From contig JBGAOB010000004.1 of assembly GCA_044222045.1 (NCBI GenBank), positions 1 through 54,321 of the forward strand: a stretch of 54,321 bases of DNA, given 5' to 3'. The position numbers and the translations under genes are program-made. Shown piece after piece: positions 1 to 52,490 of this stretch. The notes under the pieces were generated by a model, which was not told the DNA's origin, searched no databases, and saw only the letters and a program-made list of their open reading frames with translations. Numbering within the stretch: position 1 is the stretch's first letter; the number at the start of each line of letters is the position of its first letter. This DNA is from Candidatus Eiseniibacteriota bacterium. GTDB lineage: Bacteria; Eisenbacteria; RBG-16-71-46.

Positions 1-24
1 GCTGGTGTTCGGTCGTCGACCCCA

Positions 25-405
25 TCAGTACGCGCCGATGCGGAAGTCGTTGTAGATGCCGCCGAGATTGCGGACCACGACGCGGAAGTCGCCGCCGCGA
101 GTCACGAAGAACGTGGCGACGCACTCGTCGCTGCTGTCCGTGTCGGAGGCGATCAGGCGACCGAAGCCGTCGTACACGAGGAGATCCAGGTCCGACGTGC
201 CGTCGCCGCTCACCGTGATCTGCGTCCACTCGCCACCGCTGCAGCAGACGTCGAAGCTCCGGCTCGCGAACGCCTCCACGCGGTGATTCCCCCACTCGGC
301 GCCGTTGCACGGATCCGCCGCCGCCCCGCGCGGCATCGCGGCCGAGATCGTCATCGCCGTCACCACCGCCAGCATCGCCACACCGATCGCACGCATCGTC
401 TTCAT
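25..405 (-). CDS. Small secreted stand-alone PPC-like (pre-peptidase C-terminal-type beta-sandwich) protein
   Basis: ATG at 405 with AGGAGG RBS. Signal peptide MKTMRAIGVAMLAVV...AAA. PPC-like motif GDGTSDLDLLVYDGFGRLIASDTD...GDFRVVVRN. Paralog of 4759-5118. Confidence 0.75.
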   Translation of the reverse strand: MKTMRAIGVAMLAVVTAMTISAAMPRGAAADPCNGAEWGNHRVEAFASRSFDVCCSGGEWTQITVSGDGTSDLDLLVYDGFGRLIASDTDSSDECVATFFVTRGGDFRVVVRNLGGIYNDFRIGAY

Positions 406-479
406 CGTTGCCTCCTGGTCGCCGGCCCATCGGGCCGCGGGTCTGGTTCCGGCGCTTCCCACGAGCGCCTTCGCCCCCT

Positions 480-507
480 TCGTTGCGCAGGACGCGACGG
501 TGTGACA
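480..507 (-). promoter_or_regulatory. Putative ECF sigma promoter, copy 1 (TGTCACA-N14-GCAACGA)
   Basis: Minus strand TGTCACAccgtcgcgtcctgcGCAACGA upstream of 25-405. Four more copies have identical spacing. Confidence 0.75.
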
Positions 508-691
508 GCGATCGTGAAAACGGCGCCCGTGTGTGGGCGGAGGCGCTTTTTCATGGGGGAATCCCGCACCGGGCTTGCTAGGCTTCCCGGGCGGGAAAGG
601 CGTCAGCGGGCGTCCGTTCCCCGTTCACAGTCCGGACGTCCGGTGCGCCGGGCGTCACGACCGATGGACATCGACGCCTGGAGCCCTTCCC

Positions 692-3600
692 ATGCGCTTG
701 CGCCAATGGGTGCTCGCCGGCCATTTCGCCGCAGCACTCCTCGCCCTCGCCGCGATCGCCGCCCCCGCGCGTGCCGCACGCACGCTCATCAGCCCGAAGC
801 CGATCGACCGGCCGTACCCGACGTTCGCGGGCATCGTGATCGGCTCGTTCCGCCCGACCTGCAGCCAGGTGACGATTCACGCGGCAAGGCGCTCGGGCGA
901 CGAGCAAGACAGCTGCTGGTACTACCTCTGCGGGGGCACCTTCGACGTGCTGTGCGTGGCCGAATCGGCATCGGTCGCGGCGAACCTCACGGCCGGTGAC
1001 AGCTTCTTCAATGGCCGAAACGCCGATGGGAGCGGGCACAATTCCAATACGCAGAACTTGGACTGGCGGAATCGGACTCTTCCTGTCCGGTGGGAGAGTT
1101 CTCCACGCAACTGGAAACTCTATGGACAGGCTCGCTGGCAGGACGGCCTTCAGCTTCTGAACTACGGTGACTCGGCCACTGTTGTGGTCACGGGCCTCAC
1201 ACCCGGTCTGGCGTACACGCTGTATGGAACGACCAGCCCCATCTCCCCTCCTGGCTACTATGGGGTATGCACCAACCTCATCGCGTGGGTGACCGACGAC
1301 ACCAGTTCGACCGCGTCGCCGTGGCCGGTCGCGCCGGAGGTCTCGCTGCCCGTGCTCGACCTCGGCACTGCCTCGACGATCGATGCCGCGCCGGCACCGG
1401 CTGGTGGCGCGATCTCATGGGGATTCACCTCCGAACCAGGCTATATGTCTCGCATGGACTCGCGCGGCAGGCTGGCCACCTCGAACAGGTTGATTCACTC
1501 CAGCAGTCTCGGGCTCACGGCACCTGGACGTTGGTGCGCGATGACCGACGCACGGGGGAACTCTCTCATCCTTCTCGGTGAGCGTCGGCCCGGATTCGGT
1601 GGCAGCGTCATCGCGGCTCGCCGAGTGGATCCCGAGGGGTACCCACTGCCAGGCTGGCCCTCATCGCCACTTGCGTCAGCACGCGTCGTACTCGACGCAC
1701 AGGAAGACCAAGATGAGCCCACCGCAACTCCGACCTCCGACGGCGGCGCCATCCTCGCGTGGGCCGACACGCGGCATGCGCCGGGGACGCGTACCTGGCA
1801 GCTTCACAGCTCGGTCTTCGCCGAAGATGTCTACTCTCTCGATCGAGCCGACCTGGATGGCGACGGTGACGACGAAGTGATCTCCGTGCAGATCTCGCGT
1901 GACAGCCTCGAGATCTTCGACGTGCGGCAGGGAGCACTTGCGAAAGTGGTGACGTTGCCGACACGCCACAACCCCTATGCCTGTCGATCTGCGGATCTGA
2001 ACAACGACGGGCTCCCCGACCTCGTCGTCGCGTGTGGCAACAGCGACTCGCTCGATCTCTTCCTCAGCACGTCGACGCCGTTCGGCTTCACGCACTCGTG
2101 GCGAGGAAGCGCGGGGCGCGCTGTCGACCTCCGTCTCGTCGACGTGAACAACGACGGCCTCCTGGACATCGTGCACACTCGCCCGGCCGACAGCACCGTC
2201 GTGGTGCGGCGCGGCCTCGGCGGTGGCACGTTCACTCCGCCCAGTGCATACAAGACGCCCGGCGAGCCGCAGTTCCTCGCCACGGGAGACTTCGACGGCG
2301 ACGGGCTCGTCGATCTCGCCGTGCTCAGTTACCTGACACCAGGCATCGTCCGCGCGTTTCGGAATCTCGGCGGAGGCGTATTCGCCGCTGCCGGGGACCG
2401 CCAGGTCGGCTCGATTTCGCACGCGATCGTCGCGGGCCAGTTCGACGGGGATTCGCGGGACGACGTGGCCGTTGCGCCCGGACTGGGAGGAACGAGCACC
2501 GCGATGCAGATCCTGCACGGCGGCAGCTCCGGCAACCTGCTCGGTGGCGGGACTTCAACCCTCACACTCTCAGGAAAGCCTTACACGCTCGTGGCGGACG
2601 ACTTCGATCGGGACGGCTGGGTCGACATCGCCGCCGCGTACGCGTCGAGTCCGTCGGCCCCTCAGATCTGCTGGGGATCTCCCCTGGGGCCGGACGCGGC
2701 GGTAGGACTTCCCACATACGCTCGAGCGGCCTGCATCGTGGCGGCCGATCTCGACGGAGACGGAACAGGCGAGATCCTTCACCCGGACGCGAATGGCGAC
2801 AATGCCGAGCTCCTAGTCCTCCGGAACGTCAAGACGCGCCGAGACATCTACGCGCTTCGTGTCCAACCCGACGGCACACCCGCGACAGGCTGGCCGACGG
2901 CGGGGCTCGCGCTCGCCACCGACGGCAGCGACGTGACCCATCTGCACATCGCGCCCGATGGCGCGGATGGCGCATACGTGGCCTTCGACCGCGTCGAGCC
3001 GCTCTATGGTGGCGCATGGATCCAACACGTGCGCTCGAACGGTGTGCTTGCCGCCGGCTGGCCCGACTCGAGCGCGGGAGGTGCCCCCGTCGACCTCTCG
3101 CCCGCGACCCACCGGGTGGAGGACCTCGTGCGCGGAAACACGGATGTCGCCGGCAACGGTGGCGCCACGGTGGCGTTCCTGACCGACGTGGGTGACCCGT
3201 GGTTCCAGGAGGCGCGCGTCGCGCGCATCAGTGGCGCGGGAACGGTCTCGTGGATGCTCAGCCTCGGAGACGGTTCCTTCCCCCGGCTCGCACGCTGGCC
3301 CGACGGTTCGGTGCAGGTGGTGTGGCGCAGCGTGGGGGGCGCATTGAGAACAACCCGCCTGACCGCGACGGGAGCTGCACAACCGGGGTGGGCACTCTCG
3401 GGTGTTCTGCTTTCCGCGAGCGCCGACTCCGTTCCGGCCGCTGCCGCGCTCTCCGACTCGGCGCACGTGATGATTGCGTGGAGCGAGCCGACGGGCGTCC
3501 GCGTCCGGCGGTTCGGCGCCGACGCGGTCACGGGCACGTGGGCCGCGTCCATCGCGGTTATGGTCGAGCCTTCGACCCGCATGATCATCGTTCCGGGCAC

Positions 3601-4609
3601 GGAAGGCGCCGGCATCCTCGTCGCGAGCACGGCGACCGAGGTCGTCGCGCAGAGACTCGACCCGGCCGGCGCGCTGGGCGACCTGTCACCGGCCCTCGAT
3701 CGCGCCACCGACTGGCGCGCGGACCAGGGCGGCATCGTGCGCGTGAGTTGGCTGCCCTCACAGCTCGAGCGCTCCACCGCATTCGCAAGCCATGGCGGGC
3801 TCTACCGTCTCTACACGGTAGCCGCGAACGGCACTCGCACGCTCGTGAGCACGAAGGTGTCGGGCTCGGGGTGTTCGTACTGGGCCGACATTGCCGTGCC
3901 CGGGGTGGCCCGGGCTGCGGAAGGTGCCGTGGCGCCGTTCACCGTGTTCGAGCTCGAAACCTTCGATCCCGTCACGGGCGAATCCCGCCTCGCCCCGCGC
4001 GACAGCGCCTTCTCGGTCGATGATATCCCGCCGCCTGCCCCAACCGCATTCAGCTCCGCATTCACCGCGAGCGGACCGGGAACCGGCATCACCGAGTTCG
4101 ACTGGACCCCGACGCCGGTCGGCGATCTCGCGGAGTACCGGATCTTCGGCAGCCCGGATTCGCTGTTCTGGTCGCACATGACGACGACGCCCGCACCGGC
4201 CTCGCACGCCAACGCCCCGACGCCCGCGGGGAGGATGTTCTTCCGGCTCTACGCCGCGGACATCCACGGCAATACGAGCGCGCCGGCTTCGCCGGTGTTC
4301 CAGCTCGGCGCACCCGGAACCGGCGCCCCACTCACCCTGTCCTTCGCCCCGCCCTCGCCGAGCCCCGCCCGCACGAGCACGCGGATGCGGCTCTCGCTTC
4401 CCGCGCGCGCGCAGGTCGAGCTCACCGCATTCGACCTGCTCGGTCGGCGCGTGCGGCGCATCGCGGAGGGCGAGCGCTCCGCCGGCCTGTACGACCTGTC
4501 CTGGGACCTGCGCGATGACGAAGGGCGGGCGCTCGCGCCGGGGCTCTACCTGGTTCGCCTTCGCACCCAGGGTCACGAGTTCCGCCATCGCGTCCTCGTC
4601 GTTCGATAG
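692..4609 (+). CDS. Large secreted FG-GAP/VCBS repeat protein with propeller-like repeats and C-terminal FlgD-Ig (T9SS-like sorting) domain
   Basis: Signal peptide MRLRQWVLAG...ARA. Several ADLDGDG/DLNNDG/GDFDGDG repeats. C-terminal PSPARTST...FDLLGRRVR...WDLRDDEGRALAPGLYLVRL. Confidence 0.85.
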   Translation: MRLRQWVLAGHFAAALLALAAIAAPARAARTLISPKPIDRPYPTFAGIVIGSFRPTCSQVTIHAARRSGDEQDSCWYYLCGGTFDVLCVAESASVAANLTAGDSFFNGRNADGSGHNSNTQNLDWRNRTLPVRWESSPRNWKLYGQARWQDGLQLLNYGDSATVVVTGLTPGLAYTLYGTTSPISPPGYYGVCTNLIAWVTDDTSSTASPWPVAPEVSLPVLDLGTASTIDAAPAPAGGAISWGFTSEPGYMSRMDSRGRLATSNRLIHSSSLGLTAPGRWCAMTDARGNSLILLGERRPGFGGSVIAARRVDPEGYPLPGWPSSPLASARVVLDAQEDQDEPTATPTSDGGAILAWADTRHAPGTRTWQLHSSVFAEDVYSLDRADLDGDGDDEVISVQISRDSLEIFDVRQGALAKVVTLPTRHNPYACRSADLNNDGLPDLVVACGNSDSLDLFLSTSTPFGFTHSWRGSAGRAVDLRLVDVNNDGLLDIVHTRPADSTVVVRRGLGGGTFTPPSAYKTPGEPQFLATGDFDGDGLVDLAVLSYLTPGIVRAFRNLGGGVFAAAGDRQVGSISHAIVAGQFDGDSRDDVAVAPGLGGTSTAMQILHGGSSGNLLGGGTSTLTLSGKPYTLVADDFDRDGWVDIAAAYASSPSAPQICWGSPLGPDAAVGLPTYARAACIVAADLDGDGTGEILHPDANGDNAELLVLRNVKTRRDIYALRVQPDGTPATGWPTAGLALATDGSDVTHLHIAPDGADGAYVAFDRVEPLYGGAWIQHVRSNGVLAAGWPDSSAGGAPVDLSPATHRVEDLVRGNTDVAGNGGATVAFLTDVGDPWFQEARVARISGAGTVSWMLSLGDGSFPRLARWPDGSVQVVWRSVGGALRTTRLTATGAAQPGWALSGVLLSASADSVPAAAALSDSAHVMIAWSEPTGVRVRRFGADAVTGTWAASIAVMVEPSTRMIIVPGTEGAGILVASTATEVVAQRLDPAGALGDLSPALDRATDWRADQGGIVRVSWLPSQLERSTAFASHGGLYRLYTVAANGTRTLVSTKVSGSGCSYWADIAVPGVARAAEGAVAPFTVFELETFDPVTGESRLAPRDSAFSVDDIPPPAPTAFSSAFTASGPGTGITEFDWTPTPVGDLAEYRIFGSPDSLFWSHMTTTPAPASHANAPTPAGRMFFRLYAADIHGNTSAPASPVFQLGAPGTGAPLTLSFAPPSPSPARTSTRMRLSLPARAQVELTAFDLLGRRVRRIAEGERSAGLYDLSWDLRDDEGRALAPGLYLVRLRTQGHEFRHRVLVVR

Positions 4610-4626
4610 CCCCCGGACGAGCCGAA

Positions 4627-4653
4627 GCCCCGCCGGGGATCTCCCGGCGGGGC
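4627..4653. terminator. GC-rich hairpin between convergent genes (possible terminator)
   Basis: gccccgccggg-gatct-cccggcggggc, a perfect 11-bp stem. No strong U-tract. Confidence 0.45.
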
Positions 4654-4758
4654 GAGGGGCCCGACCTCCACGTCAGCGGGTCGCGGGGCCGCGCCGCTCT
4701 CGTCGCACTCGGCGTGGGGCGGCTCCTCCTTTCCGGTGCGCCCACGCACCGGCGGGAA

Positions 4759-5118
4759 TCACCGCGCCGTGATCCGGTACTCGTTCCAGACGGACCCGCG
4801 GTTGTCGACCTCGATGCGATAGCTGCCGCCGCGCGGCACGTAGAACCGCGTGATGCACACGTCGGTGTCGTCGTCGTCCGACGCGATCATGCGGCCGCTC
4901 TCGTCGTACACGTACAGATCGAGATCGGTGTCGTGGTCGCCGATCACGGTCACGCTCGCGTACTCGCCGCCGCGGAACGACACGTTGAACGCATCCTCCG
5001 ACCACGCGTTCACGCGGTGCACACCCGTCTGCGTCCCTCCCCAGGGACCCGCCACCGCCGCCTGCGCCACCGCCACCACCACCAGCACCGCCGGCACGAT
5101 TCCGTTGATCTTGCGCAT
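4759..5118 (-). CDS. Small secreted stand-alone PPC-like protein (paralog of 25-405)
   Basis: AGGAGG RBS and signal peptide. GDHDTDLDLYVYDESGRMIASDDDDTDVC...GGSYRIEVDNRG aligns by eye with 25-405. Confidence 0.8.
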   Translation of the reverse strand: MRKINGIVPAVLVVVAVAQAAVAGPWGGTQTGVHRVNAWSEDAFNVSFRGGEYASVTVIGDHDTDLDLYVYDESGRMIASDDDDTDVCITRFYVPRGGSYRIEVDNRGSVWNEYRITAR

Positions 5119-5194
5119 CGTCTACCTCCTGTCGGTGAGCCCGATGGGCTCGTGGTCTTCGTTCCGGCGCTCCGTCCGAGCGCCTTCACACCGT

Positions 5195-5222
5195 TCGTTG
5201 CTCGACCCGGCGGGCTGTGACA
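5195..5222 (-). promoter_or_regulatory. Putative ECF sigma promoter, copy 2
   Basis: Minus strand TGTCACAgcccgccgggtcgaGCAACGA. Confidence 0.75.
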
Positions 5223-5301
5223 TCGGAGTTCCCCGCGCGCCACGAACCGCGGTCGCGCCGCCGATGGAGTGGTGGACGGCGGCGCCGCAGGCACGAGACA
5301 C

Positions 5302-5335
5302 GAAGAAGCGGACCGGCCGCATGGGCCGATCCGCT
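5302..5335 (-). terminator. Putative intrinsic terminator after the Cys-rich precursor gene
   Basis: Minus strand hairpin agcggatcggcc-catgc-ggccggtccgct followed by TCTTC. Confidence 0.5.
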
Positions 5336-5365
5336 CCTCGTACCGAGCTCCGCTTGCCGCGCGGG

Positions 5366-5734
5366 TCAGTCGCCGTGGCGCAGGTGGCGCAGTCCCTCGC
5401 GCCAGGGATGCACGCGGGCCCCGCGACAGTCGCTGCCCTCGCAGTCGCCCGCGGCGCGCGCGGCGCGACAGTCGCCCGTATCGCAGACCCGCGGGCGGGC
5501 GACCCGGCCGCGACAGTCGCTGCCCTCGCAGTCGCCGCGGGCCGATGCGACCGCCGCCGCCGCAGGCGCGCTCCCGGCGAAGCACGGATCCGTATCGCAT
5601 TCGCCGCGAACGACAACCACCACCGTGGCCGGTGCAGGGGTCTCGATGCACGGATCCGTCTCGCAGCTCCGTCCCGGGCCGGCCATCGCCACGAGCCCCA
5701 GTCCCAGCGCCAATCCCATCACGATCGCTTTCAT
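5366..5734 (-). CDS. Secreted Cys-rich repeat peptide (122 aa) with five C-x4-C motifs; possible multi-core peptide precursor
   Basis: AAGGAGGT RBS and ATG at 5734. Signal peptide MKAIVMGLALGLGLVAMA. Cores CETDPC, CDTDPC, CEGSDC, CDTGDC, CEGSDC. A 29-bp exact DNA repeat lies at 5421-5449 and 5508-5536. Confidence 0.75.
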   Translation of the reverse strand: MKAIVMGLALGLGLVAMAGPGRSCETDPCIETPAPATVVVVVRGECDTDPCFAGSAPAAAAVASARGDCEGSDCRGRVARPRVCDTGDCRAARAAGDCEGSDCRGARVHPWREGLRHLRHGD

Positions 5735-5795
5735 CCGCCACCTCCTTCGTTCGAGTGTCCGCCGTGGATCCGGCGGCCCGTTGCCGCCGCCCGCT

Positions 5796-5823
5796 TCGTT
5801 GCCCGGAGCCCCCGCGTGTGAAA
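5796..5823 (-). promoter_or_regulatory. Putative ECF sigma promoter, copy 3
   Basis: Minus strand TTTCACAcgcgggggctccggGCAACGA (one mismatch in the -35 element). Confidence 0.7.
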
Positions 5824-5835
5824 CCCCGTCCGGCG

Positions 5836-6210
5836 CTAGTTCACGTTCAGCGACACGGCGGCAGGCACGTCGCTGTCGTTCTCGACCGTGATCTCCACGC
5901 GTCCGCCCCCCTGCGCGGCGCCCCCGACGACGTCCGCACCCGTGTACGCGCCCTCGGCGGCCAGCGAGCCCGAGGCGTCGAAGACCCGGACCTCCATGCC
6001 CACGGTGACGAGCCCCGGGCTGCACGCGACGGCCCACGTGCCGTCGTGCGCGAACGTCTGCCCGACCACGACCCGCTCGCCCGGATTCACCGAGCGCGTG
6101 TTGAGCGCGGTCGCGAGGATGTCCTCCGCCATGCACCCCGTGAGCGAAGCGCCGATCAGCCCCGCCAGCACCAGCGCCACCGCCGCCCGCATCGCCTTCC
6201 CCTTCGCCAT
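5836..6210 (-). CDS. Small lipoprotein, predicted all-beta, possibly a distant PPC-like domain
   Basis: GGAGGT RBS and ATG at 6210. Lipobox SLTG-C. MEVRVFDASGSLAAE...GRVEITVEN resembles the PPC-like paralogs. Confidence 0.7.
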   Translation of the reverse strand: MAKGKAMRAAVALVLAGLIGASLTGCMAEDILATALNTRSVNPGERVVVGQTFAHDGTWAVACSPGLVTVGMEVRVFDASGSLAAEGAYTGADVVGGAAQGGGRVEITVENDSDVPAAVSLNVN

Positions 6211-6281
6211 GCCGCACCTCCCGTTCGAGGGCGGGCACCGCGCGCCGTCCGGGGCGCGGCGTCTCCGCCAGTACACCCCGG

Positions 6282-6309
6282 TCGTTGCGCCCACCGGCCG
6301 CGTGTGACA
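6282..6309 (-). promoter_or_regulatory. Putative ECF sigma promoter, copy 4
   Basis: Minus strand TGTCACAcgcggccggtgggcGCAACGA. Confidence 0.75.
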
Positions 6310-6411
6310 CGTCGACTGCCGATGGTTTTCGTTGACCCTGTCGCACGCACTTCCCTAGGCTCCCGCCCCACGCGCCGCGCCAACCCGGCCGGCGGGAGGC
6401 CCGCTCAGACC

Positions 6412-6993
6412 GTGACGGAACCCATCGCCGCCCGAGACGAACAGCGCATCGCGTCCGAAGCCCGCGCCTGGTACATCGCCTTCTTCGAGCGGCGTGTCGG
6501 TGCGCGGGGTCGCGACCTCGCAGACGACCTCGCGCAGGAAGCGGCCATCGGCCTGCTGCGCGCCCTGCGCGCGACCGGTGCCGACTCGATCGAGGCCCTG
6601 CGCGCGACCATCGGAACGCGTACGTGGTTCGGCTTCCTGCGCCGCGAGTACCGGTGGAAGAAGGTCTGGGACGACACCGCCGTCGAGGAGACGGACGCGC
6701 CCGCGCCGCCCGCGACGCAGCCCGGAGCCCACCTGCGCGTGGGTGATCCGGGCGAGCGGCTCCGATTCCAGGTGCTCGAGTTCTATCGCGCCCACAACGC
6801 GAAGTGCCTGGGGCTCGCCGAGCTCTTCTTTGGCGGCGTGGACTGGATGGACGCCGCCTCGCGGCTGAACCTGGGGTACGCCGCCATCCGCCAACAGTGG
6901 TCCCGTTGCCTCAAGCTGTTGCGCGAAGTCGTGACCCGCGACGAGGACCTGCGCGACTCGCTCTGGTCCTTCTGGGGCGACAGCGATGCCTGA
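6412..6993 (+). CDS. Divergent ECF-type RNA polymerase sigma factor
   Basis: Region 2 motif DLADDLAQEA and region 4 HTH FFGGVDWMDAASRLNLGYAAIRQQWSRCLKLLR. Start uncertain: GTG 6412 after GGAGG, or ATG 6322. Confidence 0.75.
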   Translation: MTEPIAARDEQRIASEARAWYIAFFERRVGARGRDLADDLAQEAAIGLLRALRATGADSIEALRATIGTRTWFGFLRREYRWKKVWDDTAVEETDAPAPPATQPGAHLRVGDPGERLRFQVLEFYRAHNAKCLGLAELFFGGVDWMDAASRLNLGYAAIRQQWSRCLKLLREVVTRDEDLRDSLWSFWGDSDA

Positions 6994-6997
6994 CGCC

Positions 6998-7025
6998 CGT
7001 CACAGCGAAGCCCGCCGCGCAACGA
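6998..7025 (+). promoter_or_regulatory. Putative ECF sigma promoter, copy 5, upstream of anti-sigma/protease
   Basis: Plus strand CGTCACAgcgaagcccgccgcGCAACGA immediately after the sigma stop codon. Confidence 0.7.
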
Positions 7026-7146
7026 TGCTGGGGAGGGGCCGGGGAGTCGGGGGCGCTCGCGGCGGAAGCGTCACCCGGTGCACGGGGCGCACGTCCGTGG
7101 ATCCACCACGTCGGCGCGGCCCTGCAGAGGCCCTTGAGGTCAGCGA

Positions 7147-8106
7147 ATGAACGACACGCGAACGCCTTCGGACGGCCCGCCGCCGGCCGACCACGCCTGG
7201 GTGCTCAGCCGGCTGGCCCCCTACTGGGCGGGACTGCTGGAGGACTCGGCGAACGAGCGCGTCGAGTCCCACGTCGCCTCGTGCGAGCCGTGCCGGCGCG
7301 CATGGGAGGCGCAATCCGCGACGCCAGCGTTCGCGCCGGGCACCGAAGCGCACGTACCGGCCGCGCTCGTGGCGGACTGGGAGCGCCAGCAACGCACGCT
7401 GCGCGGGCTCGAACGAGCCACGATCCGCCATCATCTCGAACGCTGCGACGACTGCCGTCGCGACCTCGTGGCACTCGGTCACGAGCCCGTGCTGGAGTTC
7501 ATCGCGGCGCTGGAGCCCGAAGGCATGATGCCGCGGGCCACGCCTTCGCCCGCCGCGGCGCGGCGAACGGAGCGACCGACGGCGATGGACCACGCGCTCG
7601 ACCGCCTGCGTCGTTTCAACTGGGTCCTCGGAAGCTGGGCCGCACTCGCCACGAGCGCTGCCGCGGTGATGACGTTCGTCCTGTTGCGCGGTGGAGCGCC
7701 GATTCCGGAGGGCACGCTGCCGCAACCCGGATTCGGCGGGCCGGGCACGACGAGCATCACCTCCGGGGCGTTCCCCTCGGTGGAAGCCGCCGTCACGCTC
7801 GTGCTGCAGCCGGATGCGCCCGGCGAGGGACCGGTCGCGCTCACCCCGGCCATGTCGCCGCGACGGGTGATCGCGCTGCAGGTGCGAGGTCTGACCGCCG
7901 CGCCCCGCGACAGCCTCGCGTTCGTGATCGAGCAGGGCTCGCGCACCGTCGTCCGGCAGTCGCTGCGGGCGAAGCTCGCCGCGGATTCGGTGTTCACGGT
8001 GATCCTGCGCGGAGCGCCGACAGCGCTGCCGCCGGGGGCCTACCGGCTTCTCGTCGGGGATGCCGCCGGAGAGAGGGCGTATGTCTTCCGAATCGCGGAG
8101 CACTGA
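7147..8106 (+). CDS. Membrane anti-sigma factor with two tandem zf-HC2 (ZAS) zinc fingers
   Basis: HVASCEPC and HLERCDDC (Hx3Cx2C). One TM helix WVLGSWAALATSAAAVMTFVLL, then an extracytoplasmic beta-rich domain. Lies downstream of the sigma gene. Confidence 0.8.
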   Translation: MNDTRTPSDGPPPADHAWVLSRLAPYWAGLLEDSANERVESHVASCEPCRRAWEAQSATPAFAPGTEAHVPAALVADWERQQRTLRGLERATIRHHLERCDDCRRDLVALGHEPVLEFIAALEPEGMMPRATPSPAAARRTERPTAMDHALDRLRRFNWVLGSWAALATSAAAVMTFVLLRGGAPIPEGTLPQPGFGGPGTTSITSGAFPSVEAAVTLVLQPDAPGEGPVALTPAMSPRRVIALQVRGLTAAPRDSLAFVIEQGSRTVVRQSLRAKLAADSVFTVILRGAPTALPPGAYRLLVGDAAGERAYVFRIAEH

Positions 8107-10114
8107 GCGCACGCGAAGCTCCCGACGGGTCGCGGCGTGCCTCGGCCTGGGAATGAGCCTCACGCTCACGCTCACGCTGGCCGACGGTGTCGGTTCGGCG
8201 GGGCCCGTCCGGCTCGTGCGTCCCGGCGCGACGATCGAGCTTCGACATGCGCCCGCGGGGACGGGGTCGCTCGTCGGCCTGCCGTTCGTTCGCGCCCTGC
8301 GGGCGGGCAACGCGCCGAAACGCCCTGAGGCCGAGGGCGACGACCGCCTCGTCGCCTACCACGTCGAGTTCGCCGACGCGGCCAGCTGCAACCGGTACGC
8401 ACCGCCCGGAGCGACGGTATTCCATCGCTTCGAGCGATTTGCCGGCGTGTTCGTGTCGACGGACCGAATCGACGACCTCGTCCAGGCCACGCTGCATGCG
8501 CCCGGTTTCCGCGCGATCGAGGACGACGACATCGCCCAGCTCCCGCCACGCCCCCGACCGAGGACCGCACCGCCCTCGAAGGCGGTACCCGAGAACATCG
8601 TCCGCGGCGGGCTCGCCGGGCGCACGGGACGCGGCACGCTCGTCGGCGTCGTGGACACCGGCGTCGACTTCCGGCACGGCGACTTCGTTTCGGAATCGCC
8701 CGAGGGTCCCCGCTCGCGCATCGTGGCGTACTGGGACACCGGCCTGCCGTTCGATCCGGGGCGCGGCATCGGACGTCCCGGTCCCATCGCGTACCCGAAT
8801 GGCCAACCCGTGGGCACGGTGTTCACGGAGGCCGAGCTCACTCGCGCCCTGCGAAGCGGCGGACTCGACGATCTCGTCGATCACATCGGGCACGGCACGG
8901 CCTGCGCCGGGATCGCCGCGGGCAACGGGCGCAGCCTCAAGAGCACGCGCGAGGTGATGGGGGTGGCTCCCGGCGCCGCGCTGATCGTCGTGCGCGCCCA
9001 GACCTCGGACGAGCTCCCCGGGCTCTCGAACTTCGTGATCACTCCCGCGGTCCGATGGATGAGCGCCTTGGCCGACTCGCTGCGCCGCCCGCTCGTCGTG
9101 TCGTGCTCGTTCGGTCAGCAGATCGGCCTGCACGACGGCAGTCGGCTGATCGAACGCGAACTGGAAGCCCTGCTGCCGGACGGTGCGTCCGGGCGGGCAC
9201 TCGTCGTGTCCGCGGGCAACGACGGCACGCGGCCGGTGCACGCACGCATGGCGCTCGGCGCAAAGCCGCAGCTGCTCGAATGGCGTTGCAGCGACGGCGA
9301 CGCGCTGCTCGAGCTGCACGTGAGGACCCGCGACTCGAGCGTGGTGCGGGCCGCGGTCGCCGTTCGCTCCGACAACCGCCCGTCCGACATCGCGAACTAC
9401 CCGCTCGCGCCCGTCGTGAAAGGCTCGGCCTGGCAGATCGTGCGGTTCCGTGTCGCGGGCGACATCGGCGGCATCTATCTCTGGTCGAAAACTCCGGGCG
9501 TGCCGGTCGAGGCCTACATCTCGGGTGGGGAGTTCGCCACCCGGTTCACGGTGCAGACAGGCACCGTGGCGAGCCCGGGTACGTGCCGCGCGGCGATCAC
9601 GGTGGGGAGTTACGACTGGAACGACATGTTCGATCAGAAGGGGCTCGGCCCGACGACACTCTTCAACGCGTGTTCGGAGACACCCATCGAAATCGGAGCG
9701 CTCTCGTGTTACTCCAGTCGAGGCTTCGTGCACCGTCGGCTGGTGAAGCCCGACCTCGTCGCACCCGGGCAGTGGTTCACGGCGCCCGTGTCTCTCCTCG
9801 CACCCGAAAGGCCCGCCGGGCTCGGCATGGCTTCCGCGGGGGTGTACGAAGGCCTGCACGGATCGGGGCACTACCGCTGGTTCAACGGCACGAGCGCCGC
9901 CGCGCCGTACGTGGCCGGCGTCGTGGCGCTGGCGCTCGAGCGCGACCCGCGTCTCACACTCGGTTCACTTCGAGACCGGCTGCGCGCGAGTCTCACGCGG
10001 GACTCGACGACCGGCCCGGTGCCCAACCCGGCGTGGGGGTACGGCCGGCTCGACCTCGCCGCCGTGAAGCGCTTCCTCGGAGCCGGGGTGCGGGCCACGC
10101 CGCGCGATCATTGA
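8081..10114 (+). CDS. Secreted subtilisin-family S8 serine peptidase with inserted beta-domain (CspA-like architecture)
   Basis: Catalytic triad VVDTG, HGTACAGIAAG, GTSAAAPYVAG and oxyanion SAGND. N-terminal hydrophobic stretch. Overlaps the anti-sigma 3' end; start uncertain. Confidence 0.9.
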   Translation: MSSESRSTERTRSSRRVAACLGLGMSLTLTLTLADGVGSAGPVRLVRPGATIELRHAPAGTGSLVGLPFVRALRAGNAPKRPEAEGDDRLVAYHVEFADAASCNRYAPPGATVFHRFERFAGVFVSTDRIDDLVQATLHAPGFRAIEDDDIAQLPPRPRPRTAPPSKAVPENIVRGGLAGRTGRGTLVGVVDTGVDFRHGDFVSESPEGPRSRIVAYWDTGLPFDPGRGIGRPGPIAYPNGQPVGTVFTEAELTRALRSGGLDDLVDHIGHGTACAGIAAGNGRSLKSTREVMGVAPGAALIVVRAQTSDELPGLSNFVITPAVRWMSALADSLRRPLVVSCSFGQQIGLHDGSRLIERELEALLPDGASGRALVVSAGNDGTRPVHARMALGAKPQLLEWRCSDGDALLELHVRTRDSSVVRAAVAVRSDNRPSDIANYPLAPVVKGSAWQIVRFRVAGDIGGIYLWSKTPGVPVEAYISGGEFATRFTVQTGTVASPGTCRAAITVGSYDWNDMFDQKGLGPTTLFNACSETPIEIGALSCYSSRGFVHRRLVKPDLVAPGQWFTAPVSLLAPERPAGLGMASAGVYEGLHGSGHYRWFNGTSAAAPYVAGVVALALERDPRLTLGSLRDRLRASLTRDSTTGPVPNPAWGYGRLDLAAVKRFLGAGVRATPRDH

Positions 10115-10121
10115 CGACTGT

Positions 10122-11582
10122 TCATCGCAGCAGGACGACGGACGTCGATCGCCGCTGGCGCGCGGCTTCCAGCACCGCGAAATAGACACCGGGTCGTACC
10201 ACGCGACCGTCCGCCCCTCGCGTATCCCAGGTCGCTTGCCTCGGCCCCGGTGACAGATCCGCGTCGAGAACCGTCGCCACGGTCGCGCCGGCCACGTCCA
10301 GGACCCGCAATCGAACGGGACCCTGAACCGGCAGCGCGAACTGGAATCGAATCGGCGCACCGACCCGGGCCGGGTTCGCGGCGGGCTGGAGGAGCAAGGT
10401 CGCCGCCGATTCTCTGCGCTCGACGTCCACCTGCGCACCACACTGGAACGGCGTCGCCCAGCACACACCGGAAAGTGCCGGGGCATTCGTCGACCGAACG
10501 ATCGTGAGTTGCTCCGGCGGCCCATCGCGCTGAATGGTGTAGCCCGCCCCTGGACAGGCCTGCTGGAGACACGGCCAGCTGCACGCCCAGTCCGAACCGG
10601 TCCACACGCAGTTCCACACGCAGAGGGAGGTCGGAGAGGGGACCTGGAATCGCTGGGTTTGTCCGGCCGGGATCGTCGACGAGTTGGCGCCGACGGAAAC
10701 CAACACGCTCCCCGAGTAGGCATTCGTCACCGAGATGGTGCAGGCGCGACACGCCACGGGCAGGTCCGGCCACACGGCCGGGAACTCCGACGCAATCGGA
10801 GCCGATCGGCGTGTGGACGAAACGTCGGTTGGCATCGACGAACCACACGCCGAGGGCGCGGAAACTCCCCAGAAGAACGGCGGGTGTCCCGGGTAGGGGG
10901 ACTCCACGGACCACCACCCGGTGACGACGTACTGGGCGCCCGCCGTGAGTCCGGTCAGGATCAGGCGGGCTCGCGCGGTGTCGCAAGGGGCGGCCGAAAC
11001 CGCGGTCGATGCGGCGAATCGCAGGCAGCGCGAACCGTTCACGAACGCCACGGATGCCCCGGGCCCCGTGCGCCAGCCGTCCGCGAACCAGTCCCCGGCG
11101 AAGTCCTCGTCGAGCACCGGCGTTCCACCGCTGGAGTAGCACCAGTTGTGGTAGAGCGGGTTGCCATTGGCGTCCGTCACATTCGGACAACGCGTACAGA
11201 CGGGATTGCTTCGGAGATCCCCGTAGCGTTGAACGAGGATGTCGTCGATGCCGATCACGCCGTACGACGTGCCGGTGGAGGACGTGAGCTTCACGGCCAG
11301 ATCGACGAACACCGTGCAGCCGGGCGCGAAGAAGTAGAGCGGGTCCTGCATCTGGCACCAGTCGATGGCCGGATACGGGCGGTCGATCGGCCGCATGGGC
11401 ACGAGAGTCCGTTCCGCGCGTGCAGAAACGGCGCCCACGAAGAGGGCGATCGCGACGCCGACCGCCGCCGCGACGCGCACCGCGTGCTCGAGGAGATGGC
11501 CGCCGGGCTCACGATGCGCGCGGCGGACCCACGAGTGATTTCCGACGATGACCGCGGCGGAGTCGTGGAAGCGATGGTGCAC
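10122..11582 (-). CDS. Secreted Cys/Trp-rich protein with C-terminal FlgD-Ig domain
   Basis: GAGGAGG RBS before GTG. Hydrophobic signal-like region ending ARA. C-terminal ANPARVG...LDVAGATVA...WDTRGADGRVVRPGVYF. Confidence 0.75.
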   Translation of the reverse strand: MHHRFHDSAAVIVGNHSWVRRAHREPGGHLLEHAVRVAAAVGVAIALFVGAVSARAERTLVPMRPIDRPYPAIDWCQMQDPLYFFAPGCTVFVDLAVKLTSSTGTSYGVIGIDDILVQRYGDLRSNPVCTRCPNVTDANGNPLYHNWCYSSGGTPVLDEDFAGDWFADGWRTGPGASVAFVNGSRCLRFAASTAVSAAPCDTARARLILTGLTAGAQYVVTGWWSVESPYPGHPPFFWGVSAPSACGSSMPTDVSSTRRSAPIASEFPAVWPDLPVACRACTISVTNAYSGSVLVSVGANSSTIPAGQTQRFQVPSPTSLCVWNCVWTGSDWACSWPCLQQACPGAGYTIQRDGPPEQLTIVRSTNAPALSGVCWATPFQCGAQVDVERRESAATLLLQPAANPARVGAPIRFQFALPVQGPVRLRVLDVAGATVATVLDADLSPGPRQATWDTRGADGRVVRPGVYFAVLEAARQRRSTSVVLLR

Positions 11583-11942
11583 GCGCCCTCCTCGGTTCGG
11601 GTGAGGAACAGCCGCGCCGCCGCCGGGGGTGCGCAGGCGCCGATGGACACATCGGGAACCGGGGGATGCCCGATGGACTGTATGGAGCCCGCAGGCGTCC
11701 TGTCGAGATCAGAGTCGTCGTGCACGCGTGATCGCACCCTGGGTCACGCGCCACCGAGGGGGCTGCGGCGCGGCGCGATCGAAGCCGCGTGGCCGTGGCC
11801 CTCGCGCCGCCAGCATGTTCGTTGCAGCCGCGGCTTCGCCCCGGCCCTGACCGGGCGTATCGTCCGCGGCGCCCCCGGGCACCACCCGCGCGAGCGCCGT
11901 GCTCGCGCACCGGTCGTGACCGCCGCACGGGAGGGCGCGCCG

Positions 11943-12542
11943 ATGGCCGCCGAGTCCGAGAAGCCCGCCTGGCCACTGATGGTGATGGCCGTCGCGTCGT
12001 TCGTGCCGTGCCTGGGCTTCGCATTCGCCTCGGCCACGGTGTCGTGGGCGCTGGTCGCCCCGCGGCGCCATGCGCGCGTCGCCATGGTCGTCGCCGTGGT
12101 CGGAGCGTTGCTGAACCTCGGGTTCGCGATCGTGGTCGGCTCGGCGTGGCTGGCGAAGCACCCGCTCCCCACGCCGGAGCCCGGCTCGGACATGCTGGTG
12201 AAGACGCAGCAGCACCTGGACCTCACCGCCGAGCGAATCGAAGAGTACCGCGCGGCGCACGGGGTGTACCCCGACTCGCTCGGGCAGATGCTGGTGCCGA
12301 TGGGCGCGCCCGCGGACTCGGGCCACATTCCCGTCGACACGTCGAAGATCTTCCCGCCGGTGGACCCGCTCTCGTACGCGGCGGGACGCCCGCGACTGTT
12401 CACCTACGTCGTGTCGCCCGACCGCCAGCAGTACGACCTCCTTTCCCCCGGCCGGGACGGCAGGACGCCCAGCTCCGACGACATGCGCCCGATGCTCTCG
12501 CCCGAGGTGCGGAAGCGGTCCGGCTACCAGCCGGGGCTCTGA
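11943..12542 (+). CDS. Membrane protein with type II secretion pseudopilin GspG-like C-terminal domain
   Basis: N-terminal TM helices. IEEYRAAHGVYPDSL...DP...YDLLSPGRDGRTPSSDD matches T2SSG motifs. Confidence 0.65.
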   Translation: MAAESEKPAWPLMVMAVASFVPCLGFAFASATVSWALVAPRRHARVAMVVAVVGALLNLGFAIVVGSAWLAKHPLPTPEPGSDMLVKTQQHLDLTAERIEEYRAAHGVYPDSLGQMLVPMGAPADSGHIPVDTSKIFPPVDPLSYAAGRPRLFTYVVSPDRQQYDLLSPGRDGRTPSSDDMRPMLSPEVRKRSGYQPGL

Positions 12543-51114: not shown

Positions 51115-51163
51115 GGGCGGCAGGCTACCGCACGCGCGGGCCGCGGTCCCGCCGGGCGACGCG

Positions 51164-52426: not shown

Positions 52427-52490
52427 GCCCTGTCGCCCGCGTCGAAACGCCGGGGGCCCGGAGGCCGCCGGCGCGTCGATCGCGAGTCGT

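What the first reader, a model, noticed from the sequence alone, without database searches (positions are those of the whole stretch)
25..10114. Candidate undescribed ECF regulon: sigma + double-ZAS anti-sigma + subtilisin controlling free PPC-like proteins and a multi-core Cys peptide
Seen: an ECF sigma (6412-6993), a two-zinc-finger TM anti-sigma and an overlapping secreted S8 protease run one way. Four small exported genes run the other way: two PPC-like paralogs, a lipoprotein and a C-x4-C repeat precursor. The four small genes and the anti-sigma/protease pair each have their own copy of one promoter-like motif. Established: PPC domains are normally fused to secreted proteases (S8, M4, M9), and ZAS anti-sigmas release sigma after proteolysis or Zn/redox change. 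Inference: this is an extracellular proteolysis or peptide-signalling module. The protease may process the Cys precursor and/or the anti-sigma, with PPC-like domains supplied in trans as adaptors or receptors. I do not recognise this combination as a described system. The array may continue left of the window.
Basis: partly seen in the sequence, partly recalled or inferred. Interest (0 to 1): 0.9.

Follow-up and report, generated by a model that had tools for sequence, protein, structure and literature searches.

The report
Sigma-factor regulon with secreted subtilase
In an uncultured sludge bacterium, a divergent stress-type sigma factor and its membrane anti-sigma appear to switch on a subtilisin-like protease and four tiny exported proteins of unknown role through one shared promoter; the unit is real, but it is a new variant of a familiar kind of circuit.

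Summary
All genes are present. The "promoter-like motif" is a bipartite element, tGTCACA-N14-GCAACGA. It occurs 5 times in the window against 0.15 expected. All 4 exact copies in the 4.9-Mb assembly lie in this locus. All 5 copies are exact in the sister species.

The same element, as GTCACAC-N13-GCGACGA, sits upstream of sigma orthologues in other genera of the phylum: 11 of 28 loci score at least 12 of 13. Near these orthologues there are 26 such sites, against 1 in a reversed control. It is therefore very probably this sigma's own promoter.

The sigma/anti-sigma pair belongs to a phylum-wide family, found in 50 of 206 genomes. Both tandem zinc modules of the anti-sigma are conserved. Only this genus and a third close species link the pair to the PPC-like, lipoprotein and Cys-repeat genes. 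The subtilase is also linked to a sigma orthologue in one further genus.

Standalone PPC-like proteins are not rare: 2,083 clusters match.

The proposed roles remain untested: protease processing of the Cys peptide or the anti-sigma, and PPC proteins as adaptors. Verdict: a real local ECF-type regulon and a new variant of a known kind, of moderate interest.

The parts
25..405 (-). PPC-like small exported protein 1 (126 aa, N-terminal signal-like segment)
   Evidence: ORF. 44% identical to PPC-like 2. 96.8% aa identity in G001. GGAGG lies before the ATG.
480..506 (-). Promoter-like element GTCACA-N14-GCAACGA before PPC-like 1
   Evidence: Exact match. Identical in G001.
692..4609 (+). FG-GAP/VCBS-repeat secreted protein with FlgD_ig/T9SS-type C-terminal domain. 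It is a neighbour and has no motif copy.
   Evidence: Pfam FG-GAP_3 7e-37 and FlgD_ig 1.4e-7. Only 57% aa identity to the G001 copy. A related gene lies in the G154 locus.
4759..5118 (-). PPC-like small exported protein 2 (119 aa)
   Evidence: Pfam PPC 21.1 bits, below the cut-off of 25.9. AF2 model pLDDT 88.7. Best fold match is the Tk-SP subtilisin C-terminal jelly roll, TM 0.70. The family has 2,083 cluster representatives.
5195..5221 (-). Promoter-like element before PPC-like 2
   Evidence: Exact match. Identical in G001.
5366..5734 (-). Exported Cys-repeat protein (122 aa; five C-x4-C units; conserved His-rich C-terminal tail)
   Evidence: Translation. Homologues at 98% (G001 type) and 49% (third species, four units). 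No Pfam or NCBIfam family.
5796..5822 (-). Promoter-like element before the Cys-repeat gene (TTCACA, one mismatch; exact in G001)
5836..6213 (-). Small lipoprotein (125 aa, lipobox LTGC), possibly a distant PPC-like beta-sandwich
   Evidence: ORF. Homologues at 92% and 62% only. hhalign to the PPC-like profile gives probability 31.6%, E 5e-4, which is suggestive only.
6282..6308 (-). Promoter-like element before the lipoprotein gene
   Evidence: Exact match to the 13 specified bases. In G001 the core is kept amid diverged flanks.
6412..6993 (+). Divergent ECF-type sigma factor (193 aa); no motif copy upstream
   Evidence: The family profile matches ECF SigE at E 1.4e-5. Pfam and NCBIfam hits are sub-threshold. 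Family members occur in 50 of 206 genomes of the phylum. No motif upstream.
6999..7025 (+). Promoter-like element between the sigma stop codon and the anti-sigma gene
   Evidence: Exact match. Kept in G001.
7147..8106 (+). Single-pass anti-sigma with two tandem H-x3-C-x2-C zinc modules, one TM helix and a C-terminal beta-sandwich ectodomain
   Evidence: zf-HC2 matches twice. Module 1 matches ChrR at 2.3e-5 and RslA at 1.5e-4. H16 H42 C46 C49 H69 H96 C100 C103 are invariant in 18 chosen rows. The AF2 model shows two three-helix units, TM 146-181 and strands 242-316.
8060..10114 (+). Secreted S8 subtilase with a long insert between His and Ser; Csp-like
   Evidence: Pfam 4.2e-33. D199, H278, N387 and S612 are invariant in 3 orthologues. 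The closest solved relatives are clostridial Csp proteases, E 1e-16. A 43% orthologue lies beside a sigma orthologue in G154.
10122..11582 (-). Secreted protein with FlgD_ig-like C-terminal domain. Its N-terminal domain is shared with the FG-GAP protein. It is a neighbour and has no conserved motif copy.
   Evidence: A homologue follows the anti-sigma in G154. The GCAACGAA at 11818 is not conserved in G001.

Best explanation
This is a local regulon of an ECF-type sigma/anti-sigma pair.

The pair belongs to a family spread through this phylum; one related record is titled Candidatus Eisenbacteria. The family has three parts:
- a sigma of about 190 aa;
- a single-pass anti-sigma whose cytoplasmic part carries two tandem zinc (H-x3-C-x2-C) modules and whose outer part is a small beta-sandwich;
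- a cognate promoter, tGTCACA-N14-GC(A/G)ACGA.

In this genus the promoter has been placed in front of five transcription units within 6.6 kb: anti-sigma plus a Csp-like S8 subtilase, and four single genes for small exported proteins. Those four are two PPC-type jelly rolls, a lipoprotein and a Cys-repeat protein.

Inferred working:
1. At rest the anti-sigma holds the sigma at the membrane.
2. An envelope or extracellular cue releases the sigma, presumably by regulated proteolysis or by a change at the zinc and thiol sites.
3. The sigma then drives export of the protease and the four small proteins.
4. It also drives resynthesis of the anti-sigma, which is negative feedback.
5. The sigma gene itself is not under the motif here, unlike in orthologous loci, where the motif precedes the sigma operon.

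Shown: the genes, the motif, its uniqueness, and its co-occurrence with sigma orthologues. Inferred: that the motif is a promoter read by this sigma, the nature of the signal, and what the exported proteins do. My leading guess for their role is binding and cutting of an extracellular or envelope protein substrate.
For: Motif in the window and its genome:
- 5 copies in the window against 0.15 expected, with 0 of 100 shuffles reaching 5.
- All 4 exact copies in the 4.9-Mb assembly lie in this locus. The two other 1-mismatch hits are not in front of genes.
- G001 has 5 exact copies, all in its locus.
- In the variable lipoprotein and anti-sigma intergenic regions the motif core is kept while the flanks diverge.
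- All copies point at a gene, 69-128 nt before a start codon that has a GGAGG-like site.

Motif with sigma orthologues:
- G012 and G010 carry the GCGACGA form about 80-120 nt before their sigma genes.
- 11 of 28 loci outside this genus score at least 12 of 13 within 330 nt upstream of sigma.
- 22 such loci (309,819 bases) hold 26 sites. The reversed control gives 1, and 10 Markov simulations give a mean of 2.7.
- Other targets are envelope or secreted proteins.

Sigma and anti-sigma:
- The -35-like half equals the ECF41 -35 consensus TGTCACA (PMC3426412, passages seen).
- The sigma profile matches ECF SigE.
- The anti-sigma is adjacent in 23 of 23 loci.
- Its first module matches ChrR, RslA and RsiW.

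Subtilase: the catalytic residues are conserved.
Against: - There are no expression data: no RNA holder was listed and no transcription start site is known.
- The sigma misses the curated Pfam and NCBIfam thresholds.
- The sigma gene lacks the motif, so positive autoregulation, a usual ECF trait, is not seen here.
- 17 of 28 orthologous loci score below 12 of 13 upstream of sigma, including G154, the only other genus with the S8 (best 8 of 13).
- In G154 no motif was found before the S8, so S8 need not be a sigma target everywhere.
- The -10-like half (GCAACGA) is unlike the usual ECF CGTC, and the exact register is unclear.
- The assembly is a MAG: 83.67% complete, 4.81% contamination. 'Nowhere else in the genome' therefore means the assembled part only.
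Confidence: 0.72

Rival explanations
1. The subtilase is a processing protease. It cuts the exported multi-core Cys-repeat protein into C-x4-C loop peptides and/or clips the anti-sigma ectodomain. The PPC-like proteins act as trans-supplied partners of the protease. The locus would then be an extracellular peptide-signalling loop that feeds back on its own sigma.
For: - The short cores C-[DES]-[TG]-[SDN]-[DP]-C and a C-terminal tail are conserved across three species. Spacers and copy number (5 against 4) vary, and one core has lost a Cys in G001.
- The closest solved relatives of the S8 are Csp germination subtilases. These are processing rather than bulk proteases (recalled).
- The best fold match of PPC-like 2 is the C-terminal jelly roll of a subtilisin, Tk-SP. 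This S8 ends soon after its catalytic Ser.
- The anti-sigma and S8 genes overlap.
- S8 lies beside a sigma orthologue in a second genus.
Against: - The G154 locus has the S8 but no PPC, Cys or lipoprotein gene by tblastn or by a C-x4-C scan within 19.5 kb.
- No maturation enzymes lie in the locus.
- None of the 20 PPC-family members scanned carried an S8, M4 or M9 peptidase domain.
- No test here addresses cleavage or binding.
Confidence: 0.1
2. An envelope-defence regulon. The small exported beta-sandwich proteins and the lipoprotein are periplasmic or surface binders or inhibitors of foreign enzymes. They are induced together with a protease when the envelope is attacked.
For: - Fold hits of PPC-like 2 include PliG periplasmic lysozyme inhibitors (4dzg E 1.8e-4, TM 0.59).
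- Targets of the same motif in other genomes are envelope proteins: outer-membrane-like barrels, CsgG-like proteins and small lipoproteins.
- ECF sigmas commonly answer envelope damage (established knowledge, recalled).
Against: - The PliG hits rank below subtilisin jelly-roll, GOLD and collagen-binding domains.
- The nearly invariant Asp-rich GDxDTDLDLYVYD stretch recalls the calcium sites of PPC and collagen-binding domains rather than an inhibitor loop (recalled).
- There is no direct evidence for this reading.
Confidence: 0.12
3. A metal or thiol-redox module. The Cys-repeat protein with its His-rich tail binds metal or buffers oxidants outside the cytoplasm. The double zinc-thiolate anti-sigma is itself the sensor, in the manner of RsrA.
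For: - The protein has ten Cys in five C-x4-C units plus a conserved HPW..H..H tail.
- All eight zinc-ligand positions are invariant in the 18 chosen anti-sigma rows.
- NCBIfam's best hit for module 1 is RsrA, at 28.9 bits and below its cut-off.
Against: - The anti-sigma is membrane-anchored with a conserved ectodomain, which points to an outside signal.
- Many ZAS proteins are not redox sensors (recalled).
- No metal transporter or oxidoreductase lies in the locus.
- G001 tolerates the loss of one Cys.
Confidence: 0.08
4. The motif is not this sigma's promoter. It is the operator of some other DNA-binding regulator, or a repeat spread by duplication, and its nearness to the sigma is coincidental.
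For: - The PPC-like 1 and 2 upstream regions are alike over about 100 nt. Part of the similarity is therefore duplication.
- The upstream regions show 96-98% identity between the two species, which could reflect recent transfer rather than constraint.
Against: - The element is asymmetric, has a fixed 14-nt spacer and a fixed orientation towards genes.
- The Cys, lipoprotein and anti-sigma copies share nothing but the motif.
- It travels with sigma orthologues across genera.
- It resembles a known ECF promoter class.
Confidence: 0.06

Closest known systems
ECF41 sigma factors (SigJ type) and their promoter TGTCACA-n16-CGTC
   Same: The -35-like word TGTCACA is identical, the layout is bipartite, and the targets are few and local (PMC3426412, passages seen).
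   Different: As described in that paper, ECF41 sigmas carry a fused C-terminal regulatory domain, have no anti-sigma and target COE genes. This sigma is 193 aa and has an adjacent anti-sigma in 23 of 23 loci. Its downstream half is GC(A/G)ACGA, and its targets are exported proteins. No SigJ chain appeared among the profile's PDB hits at E up to 1.
Class I zinc-binding anti-sigma factors (ChrR, RslA, RsiW, RsrA)
   Same: It has the H-x3-C-x2-C motif with an upstream His. There is sequence similarity to ChrR (2.3e-5), RslA (1.5e-4) and RsiW (3.6e-3). It is membrane-anchored like RslA and RsiW.
   Different: There are two tandem three-helix zinc modules instead of one, and both are conserved across the family. 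I found no description of such a tandem form, but the searches were few (one search was uninformative; one search returned 0 papers).
Regulated-proteolysis ECF pathways (sigmaE-RseA-DegS/RseP; sigmaW-RsiW-PrsW) - recalled
   Same: A single-pass anti-sigma with an outer domain, and a protease gene tied to the pathway.
   Different: The known site-1 proteases are not S8 subtilases (recalled). Here the protease gene lies downstream of the sigma-type promoter, so it is at least an output. Its action on the anti-sigma is untested.
Clostridial Csp germination subtilases (CspB/CspC/CspA)
   Same: They are the closest solved sequence relatives, E about 1e-16 over residues 188-447. NCBIfam's best hit is CspBA. 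The spacing between the catalytic His and Ser is long.
   Different: The hits are far below family cut-offs (75 bits against 1,250). This protein has a signal-like N-terminus, comes from a non-sporulating lineage, and has no SleC-type substrate gene nearby.
PPC / collagen-binding jelly-roll domains of secreted proteases (Tk-SP, ColH/ColG, KP-43)
   Same: The fold matches: TM 0.67-0.70 and rmsd 1.6-2.7 Å to Tk-SP and ColH CBD. The Asp-rich motif is shared, and multi-repeat family members match Pfam PPC strongly.
   Different: Here the domain stands alone behind a signal peptide. That form is common in metagenomes: 76 of the best 150 representatives are at most 160 aa. I found no study of the standalone form in one search.
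Multi-core RiPP precursors cut by subtilisin-like proteases (cyanobactin PatE with PatA/PatG) - recalled
   Same: Repeated short conserved cores between variable spacers, with an S8 gene nearby.
   Different: The precursor has a Sec-type signal peptide. The locus has no heterocyclase or macrocyclase genes. The S8 resembles Csp proteases.

Membership tests
ECF (group 4) sigma-70 factors | Two-domain sigma (regions 2 and 4 only) recognised by family models | tested here: inconclusive
   Pfam Sigma70_r2 scores 17.1 bits against a cut-off of 24, and there is no r4 hit. TIGR02937 scores 16 bits against 42.9. A 10-sequence profile matches ECF SigE region 2 at E 1.4e-5 and FliA region 4 at 0.0044.
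ECF (group 4) sigma-70 factors | Adjacent cognate anti-sigma gene | tested here: met
   Sigma and anti-sigma hits are adjacent in 23 of 23 fetched loci.
ECF (group 4) sigma-70 factors | Bipartite cognate promoter that also precedes the sigma operon (autoregulation) | tested here: inconclusive
   Met in orthologues: 11 of 28 loci score at least 12 of 13 upstream of sigma, and sites are enriched 26 against 1. Not met for the window's own sigma gene, where the element lies after the sigma stop codon.
ECF41 subgroup | Fused C-terminal regulatory extension, no anti-sigma, COE target genes | tested here: not met
   The sigma is 193 aa and ends soon after region 4. An anti-sigma is present. The targets are exported proteins. 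Only the TGTCACA word is shared.
ZAS anti-sigma factors (Pfam zf-HC2) | H-x3-C-x2-C with an upstream His/Cys ligand in an N-terminal helical anti-sigma domain | tested here: met
   zf-HC2 at E 1e-9 in two stretches. Both ligand sets are invariant in 18 chosen rows. ChrR and RslA match module 1. Zinc binding itself was not tested.
Peptidase S8 (subtilases) | Asp-His-Ser triad plus oxyanion Asn in a Peptidase_S8 domain | tested here: met
   Pfam 115.3 bits against a cut-off of 21.8. D199, H278, N387 and S612 are invariant in 3 orthologues.
PPC, bacterial pre-peptidase C-terminal domain (PF04151) | Match to the family model | tested here: inconclusive
   PPC-like 2 scores 21.1 bits against a cut-off of 25.9, and PPC-like 1 has no hit. 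Multi-repeat relatives found with PPC-like 2 match at 1e-21 to 2e-72.
PPC, bacterial pre-peptidase C-terminal domain (PF04151) | Beta jelly-roll fold of protease C-terminal and collagen-binding domains | tested here: met
   The AF2 model has pLDDT 88.7. Foldseek gives 3afg TM 0.70, 3jqw 0.67 and 5sv5 0.67.
PPC, bacterial pre-peptidase C-terminal domain (PF04151) | Location at the C-terminus of a secreted peptidase precursor | tested here: not met
   The protein is a standalone 119-126 aa chain. None of 20 relatives scanned had an S8, M4 or M9 domain.
Multi-core RiPP precursor systems (cyanobactin-like) | Repeated cores with flanking recognition sequences plus dedicated maturation enzymes in the cluster | tested here: not met
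   Repeated cores are present. No maturation enzyme genes other than the S8 lie in 1-11,600. The precursor carries a signal peptide.

The most novel reading that the evidence does not exclude
The Csp-like subtilase is the signal-making or gate-opening protease of this sigma pathway. Once exported, it would mature the multi-core Cys-repeat protein into C-x4-C loop peptides and/or clip the anti-sigma's outer beta-sandwich. The standalone PPC jelly rolls would serve as its detachable substrate-binding partners. The locus would then be a self-contained extracellular peptide-signalling circuit wired to an ECF-type sigma through a tandem-zinc anti-sigma. The near-zero synonymous divergence of the small genes between species would mark their recent spread as a social or competitive trait.
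Probability: 0.1. Interest if true: 0.8.

Novelty: new variant of a known kind. Interest (0 to 1): 0.5.

Why it matters
The locus gives a candidate phylum with no cultured model a concrete, testable sigma-promoter pair: the sigma, a tandem-zinc anti-sigma and a 27-nt element.

It also shows how such a module is rewired. A family-wide autoregulatory promoter has been copied in front of newly acquired genes for exported proteins and moved behind the sigma gene.

It links a very large, unstudied family of standalone PPC-type proteins to a defined regulatory context and to a subtilase. That gives a first handle on their function.

If the subtilase acts on the anti-sigma or on the Cys-repeat protein, this would be a new kind of proteolytic input or output for ECF signalling.

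Tried and rejected
- Complex prediction of the S8 (residues 186-684, 3-row alignment) with PPC-like 2 (25-119, 50 rows) gave 'no answer', score 0.00. This is no evidence either way.
- RNA evidence: no RNA holder was listed. The one run labelled RNA-Seq (X20) is marked 'probably DNA'. It gave only short contigs at 409-589, 4800-5140 and 5769-6122, which I do not use.
- Rfam gathering scan of the whole window: 0 matches.
- Sigma-70 promoter and terminator consensus scans over 1-12,000 showed no enrichment: 1 against 0.5 and 4 against 3.1.
- GCAACGAW alone is only weakly enriched: 7 against 2.55, with 2 of 100 shuffles reaching 7. CAACGA is not enriched: 25 against 22.1.
- The GCAACGAA at 11818(-) before the 486-aa gene is not kept in G001 and is rejected as chance.
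- The genome hits at C147 and C332 (one mismatch each) are rejected. One points at no gene and the other lies inside an ORF.
- Fold search with the whole anti-sigma model found nothing at E up to 0.001. The weak top hits (E 0.017-0.05) are T9SS-type C-terminal domains.
- Protein Atlas search for the Cys-repeat protein gave a best score of 0.81, which is uninformative.
- Word-based homologue searches found only 6 sigma, 2 lipoprotein and 2 Cys-protein relatives.
- The genome contigs and metagenome-contig scans returned 2 loci each. I did not analyse L100 or L101 further.
- ECF-group HMMs (ECF Hub) were not available, so the sigma was not assigned to a numbered group. The 2021 ECF reclassification was not consulted.
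- Literature:
  - One search returned 2 papers, unrelated by title and abstract start.
  - One search returned 3 unrelated papers.
  - One search returned 2 cellulosome papers.
  - One search was uninformative.
  - One search returned 0 papers.
  - My statement that the combination is not in print rests on these five searches only.
  - Supplements were closed and were not seen.
- Rows dropped:
  - The anti-sigma alignment used 16 of 21 loci, plus the window and G001.
  - L015 was left out because of an in-frame stop or frameshift.
  - L091 and L096 were left out because the first zinc motif is degenerate.
  - L093 and L095 were left out because the frame call was fused or wrong.
  - The invariance of the first module is therefore partly by selection. 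In one search, 17 of 21 loci showed two motifs.

Full report
**What is there**

The window is the first 54,321 bases of contig C175 of a metagenome-assembled genome: 4.9 Mb, 439 contigs, 83.67% complete, 4.81% contamination. GC content is about 64-73%. A related record is titled Candidatus Eisenbacteria.

The first 11.6 kb hold the following genes:
- PPC-like 1: 25-405 (-).
- A 1,358-aa FG-GAP/FlgD_ig protein: 692-4609 (+).
- PPC-like 2: 4759-5118 (-).
- A 122-aa Cys-repeat protein: 5366-5734 (-).
- A 125-aa lipoprotein: 5836-6213 (-).
- A 193-aa sigma: 6412-6993 (+).
- A 319-aa anti-sigma: 7147-8106 (+).
- A 684-aa S8 subtilase: 8060-10114 (+).
- A 486-aa protein with a FlgD_ig-like tail: 10122-11582 (-).

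Pfam and NCBIfam support the S8 (E 4.2e-33) and two zf-HC2 stretches in the anti-sigma (E 1e-9). They give only sub-threshold support for the sigma and for PPC. The Cys-repeat protein, the lipoprotein and PPC-like 1 match no family.

**The motif**

I saw the upstream half when aligning the intergenic regions with the sister species.
- The window holds 5 copies at up to 1 mismatch against 0.15 expected, and 0 of 100 shuffles reach 5.
- In the whole assembly there are 4 exact copies, all in this locus. There are three 1-mismatch copies. One is the Cys-gene copy, and the other two are not placed before genes.
- The sister species G001 has 5 exact copies, all in the syntenic locus.
- Each copy points at a gene. 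The GCAACGA half starts 69-128 nt before a start codon with a GGAGG-like site.
- The sigma gene has none. One copy begins six bases after the sigma stop codon and precedes the anti-sigma and S8 genes.

**Whose motif it is**

Sigma relatives occur in 8 of 41 close genomes. With a 10-sequence profile they occur in 50 of 206 genomes of the phylum, often in several copies.
- In G012 and G010 the only locus-linked 1-mismatch copies of the motif (GCGACGA form) lie about 80-120 nt upstream of the sigma orthologue.
- Over 28 loci outside this genus, 11 have a site scoring at least 12 of 13 within 330 nt upstream of sigma, and 17 do not.
- In 22 wider loci (309,819 bases) there are 26 such sites. The reversed sequence gives 1, and 10 first-order Markov simulations give a mean of 2.7 (range 0-5).
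- Several loci hold 2-6 copies in front of genes for lipoproteins, outer-membrane-like proteins, CsgG-like proteins and large secreted proteins.

The element therefore travels with this sigma family and marks envelope or secreted-protein genes. Its upstream half equals the -35 consensus of ECF41 promoters, TGTCACA-n16-CGTC (PMC3426412; listing, passages). The sigma is nonetheless not an ECF41 member: it has no C-terminal extension, and an anti-sigma is present.

**The sigma/anti-sigma pair**

The sigma profile matches region 2 of ECF SigE chains (E 1.4e-5) and, weakly, region 4 of FliA.

The anti-sigma gene is adjacent to sigma in 23 of 23 fetched loci.
- Two H/C-x3-C-x2-C motifs 51-58 residues apart occur in 17 of 21 loci.
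- In an alignment of 18 chosen rows, all eight ligand positions (H16 H42 C46 C49; H69 H96 C100 C103) are invariant.
- The AF2 model (mean pLDDT 68, both helical modules 83-95) shows two three-helix units, one TM helix (146-181) and a C-terminal beta-sandwich.
- Module 1 matches ChrR, RslA and RsiW by sequence.
- The whole model finds no significant fold match.

**How far the linkage goes**

S8 orthologues at E up to 1e-30 occur in 3 of 206 genomes: the window's own, G001, and G154, which belongs to another genus (43% identity).

In G154 the S8 lies divergently beside sigma and anti-sigma. These are followed by a homologue of the 486-aa protein and an FG-GAP-like gene. No PPC, Cys or lipoprotein gene was detected there, and no motif was found before the S8.

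Across 23 sigma loci, S8 was found in 2 by tblastn and by a signature scan. The small genes were found in 1.

PPC-like 2 matches in 3 of 206 genomes, one of them weakly.

Protein searches show a third species with sigma at 83%, lipoprotein at 62% and Cys protein at 49% identity, all on one 6,776-nt contig. They also found a 78% PPC-like 2 homologue of unknown contig.

The full set is thus confined to a narrow group, while the sigma/anti-sigma family is wide.

**The small proteins**

PPC-like 2 has 2,083 cluster representatives at E up to 0.001, and 733 at 1e-10.
- Of the best 150, 76 are at most 160 aa, 62 are 161-300 aa and 12 are longer.
- Named members are 'hypothetical protein', one of them from a Planctomycetaceae MAG.
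- Of 20 relatives scanned, 6 match Pfam PPC strongly and none has an S8, M4 or M9 domain.
- The AF2 model (pLDDT 88.7) best matches the C-terminal jelly roll of Tk-SP subtilisin (TM 0.70). Next come GOLD domains, ColH collagen-binding domain, PliG and a collagenase PPC domain.
- The lipoprotein, and an extra G001 protein, align weakly to the PPC-like profile (hhalign probability 32% and 67%).

The Cys-repeat protein keeps its C-x4-C cores and a His-rich tail across three species. Spacers and copy number vary.

**An unexpected pattern**

Between the window and G001, synonymous divergence differs sharply by gene.

| Gene | dS |
|---|---|
| PPC-like 1 | 0 |
| PPC-like 2 | 0.017 |
| Cys gene | 0.032 |
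| Lipoprotein | 0.105 |
| Sigma | 0.19 |
| S8 | 0.28 |
| FG-GAP C-terminal part | 0.32 |
| Anti-sigma | 0.35 |
| 486-aa gene | 0.47 |

The upstream DNA of the three least-diverged genes is 96-98% identical.

A contig of another sludge run matches window 1-767 at 98% and then diverges. This points to recent exchange of the small-gene segments, or to nucleotide-level constraint. It also means that dN/dS between these two genomes cannot prove that the small genes are coding. The third-species homologues and the large PPC family do that.

**Reading**

The best-supported account is a local ECF-type regulon: the sigma's promoter drives anti-sigma plus S8 and four exported small proteins, with negative feedback through the anti-sigma and no visible positive autoregulation.

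The function of the output is open. The proposed roles are compatible with some features: Csp-like S8, subtilisin-type jelly roll, conserved cores. They remain untested, and the one complex prediction gave no answer. These roles are S8 as processing enzyme for the Cys protein or the anti-sigma, and PPC proteins as partners.

**Limits**

- Supplements were closed.
- ECF group models were not on hand.

Noticed in passing
window 1-690 and 4759-5835, against L013 (G001): Synonymous divergence of PPC-like 1, PPC-like 2 and the Cys gene is 0-0.03, and their upstream DNA is 96-98% identical. Neighbouring genes show dS 0.19-0.47. This suggests recent gene flow between the two species or constraint at the nucleotide level.
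   Followed up: partly
window 692-4609 (+): The FG-GAP/FlgD_ig protein is only 57% identical to its G001 counterpart, while the flanking small genes are about 97% identical. A contig of run X8 matches 1-767 at 98% and then runs on unlike. It looks like a hypervariable surface protein next to ultra-conserved neighbours. A sub-threshold Pfam hit to TcdB_toxin_midN (20.8 bits against 24.8) lies in its repeat region.
   Followed up: no
window 692-1600 (+), 10842-11582 (-); L080 14258-16504 (+): The FG-GAP protein and the 486-aa protein share an N-terminal domain of about 250 aa (motif RPIDRPYP) with no Pfam match. In G154 a homologue (52% over 211 aa) directly follows the anti-sigma. This domain, the S8 and the sigma pair are therefore linked in two genera.
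   Followed up: partly
window 403-480 (-) and 5116-5195 (-): The leaders of PPC-like 1 and 2 share two hairpins. The first is identical in sequence (GGCGCTC...AGCGCC). Two outer pairs show compensatory changes, although the proteins are only 44% identical.
   Followed up: partly
L013 204-3516 (G001), left of the PPC-like 1 orthologue: Where the window's contig ends, G001 continues with one more small exported beta-sandwich gene on the same strand (hhalign to the PPC-like profile gives probability 67%) and a 914-aa TPR-like ORF. A contig of run X2 extends 669 nt beyond window position 1.
   Followed up: partly
L013 about 8940-9305 (-) (G001 Cys gene): The fourth C-x4-C unit of the G001 copy reads CDTGDR, leaving nine Cys. 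The third species has four units instead of five.
   Followed up: no
L097 (G112:C269:2800-19300): Six copies of the motif in 16.5 kb, on both strands. They precede a second anti-sigma-like gene, a CsgG-like gene, an outer-membrane-like gene, a lipoprotein and others. This is a larger regulon of the same sigma family.
   Followed up: partly
window 50197-54013 (-): A second, more ordinary-looking ECF sigma (183 aa) with a putative anti-sigma and an ABC transporter pair (ATPase plus FtsX-like permease). This was judged from translations only.
   Followed up: no
G000:C374:6717-7220 (+): A paralogue of the sigma in the same genome (profile E 4.1e-28). No motif copy at up to 2 mismatches was listed on that contig.
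   Followed up: no
window 1-8200: The stretch is held nearly whole by a bioreactor metagenome run, which may be the source. An activated-sludge run of another study holds 0.89 of its words, and the listed long pieces have 0 differences.
   Followed up: partly
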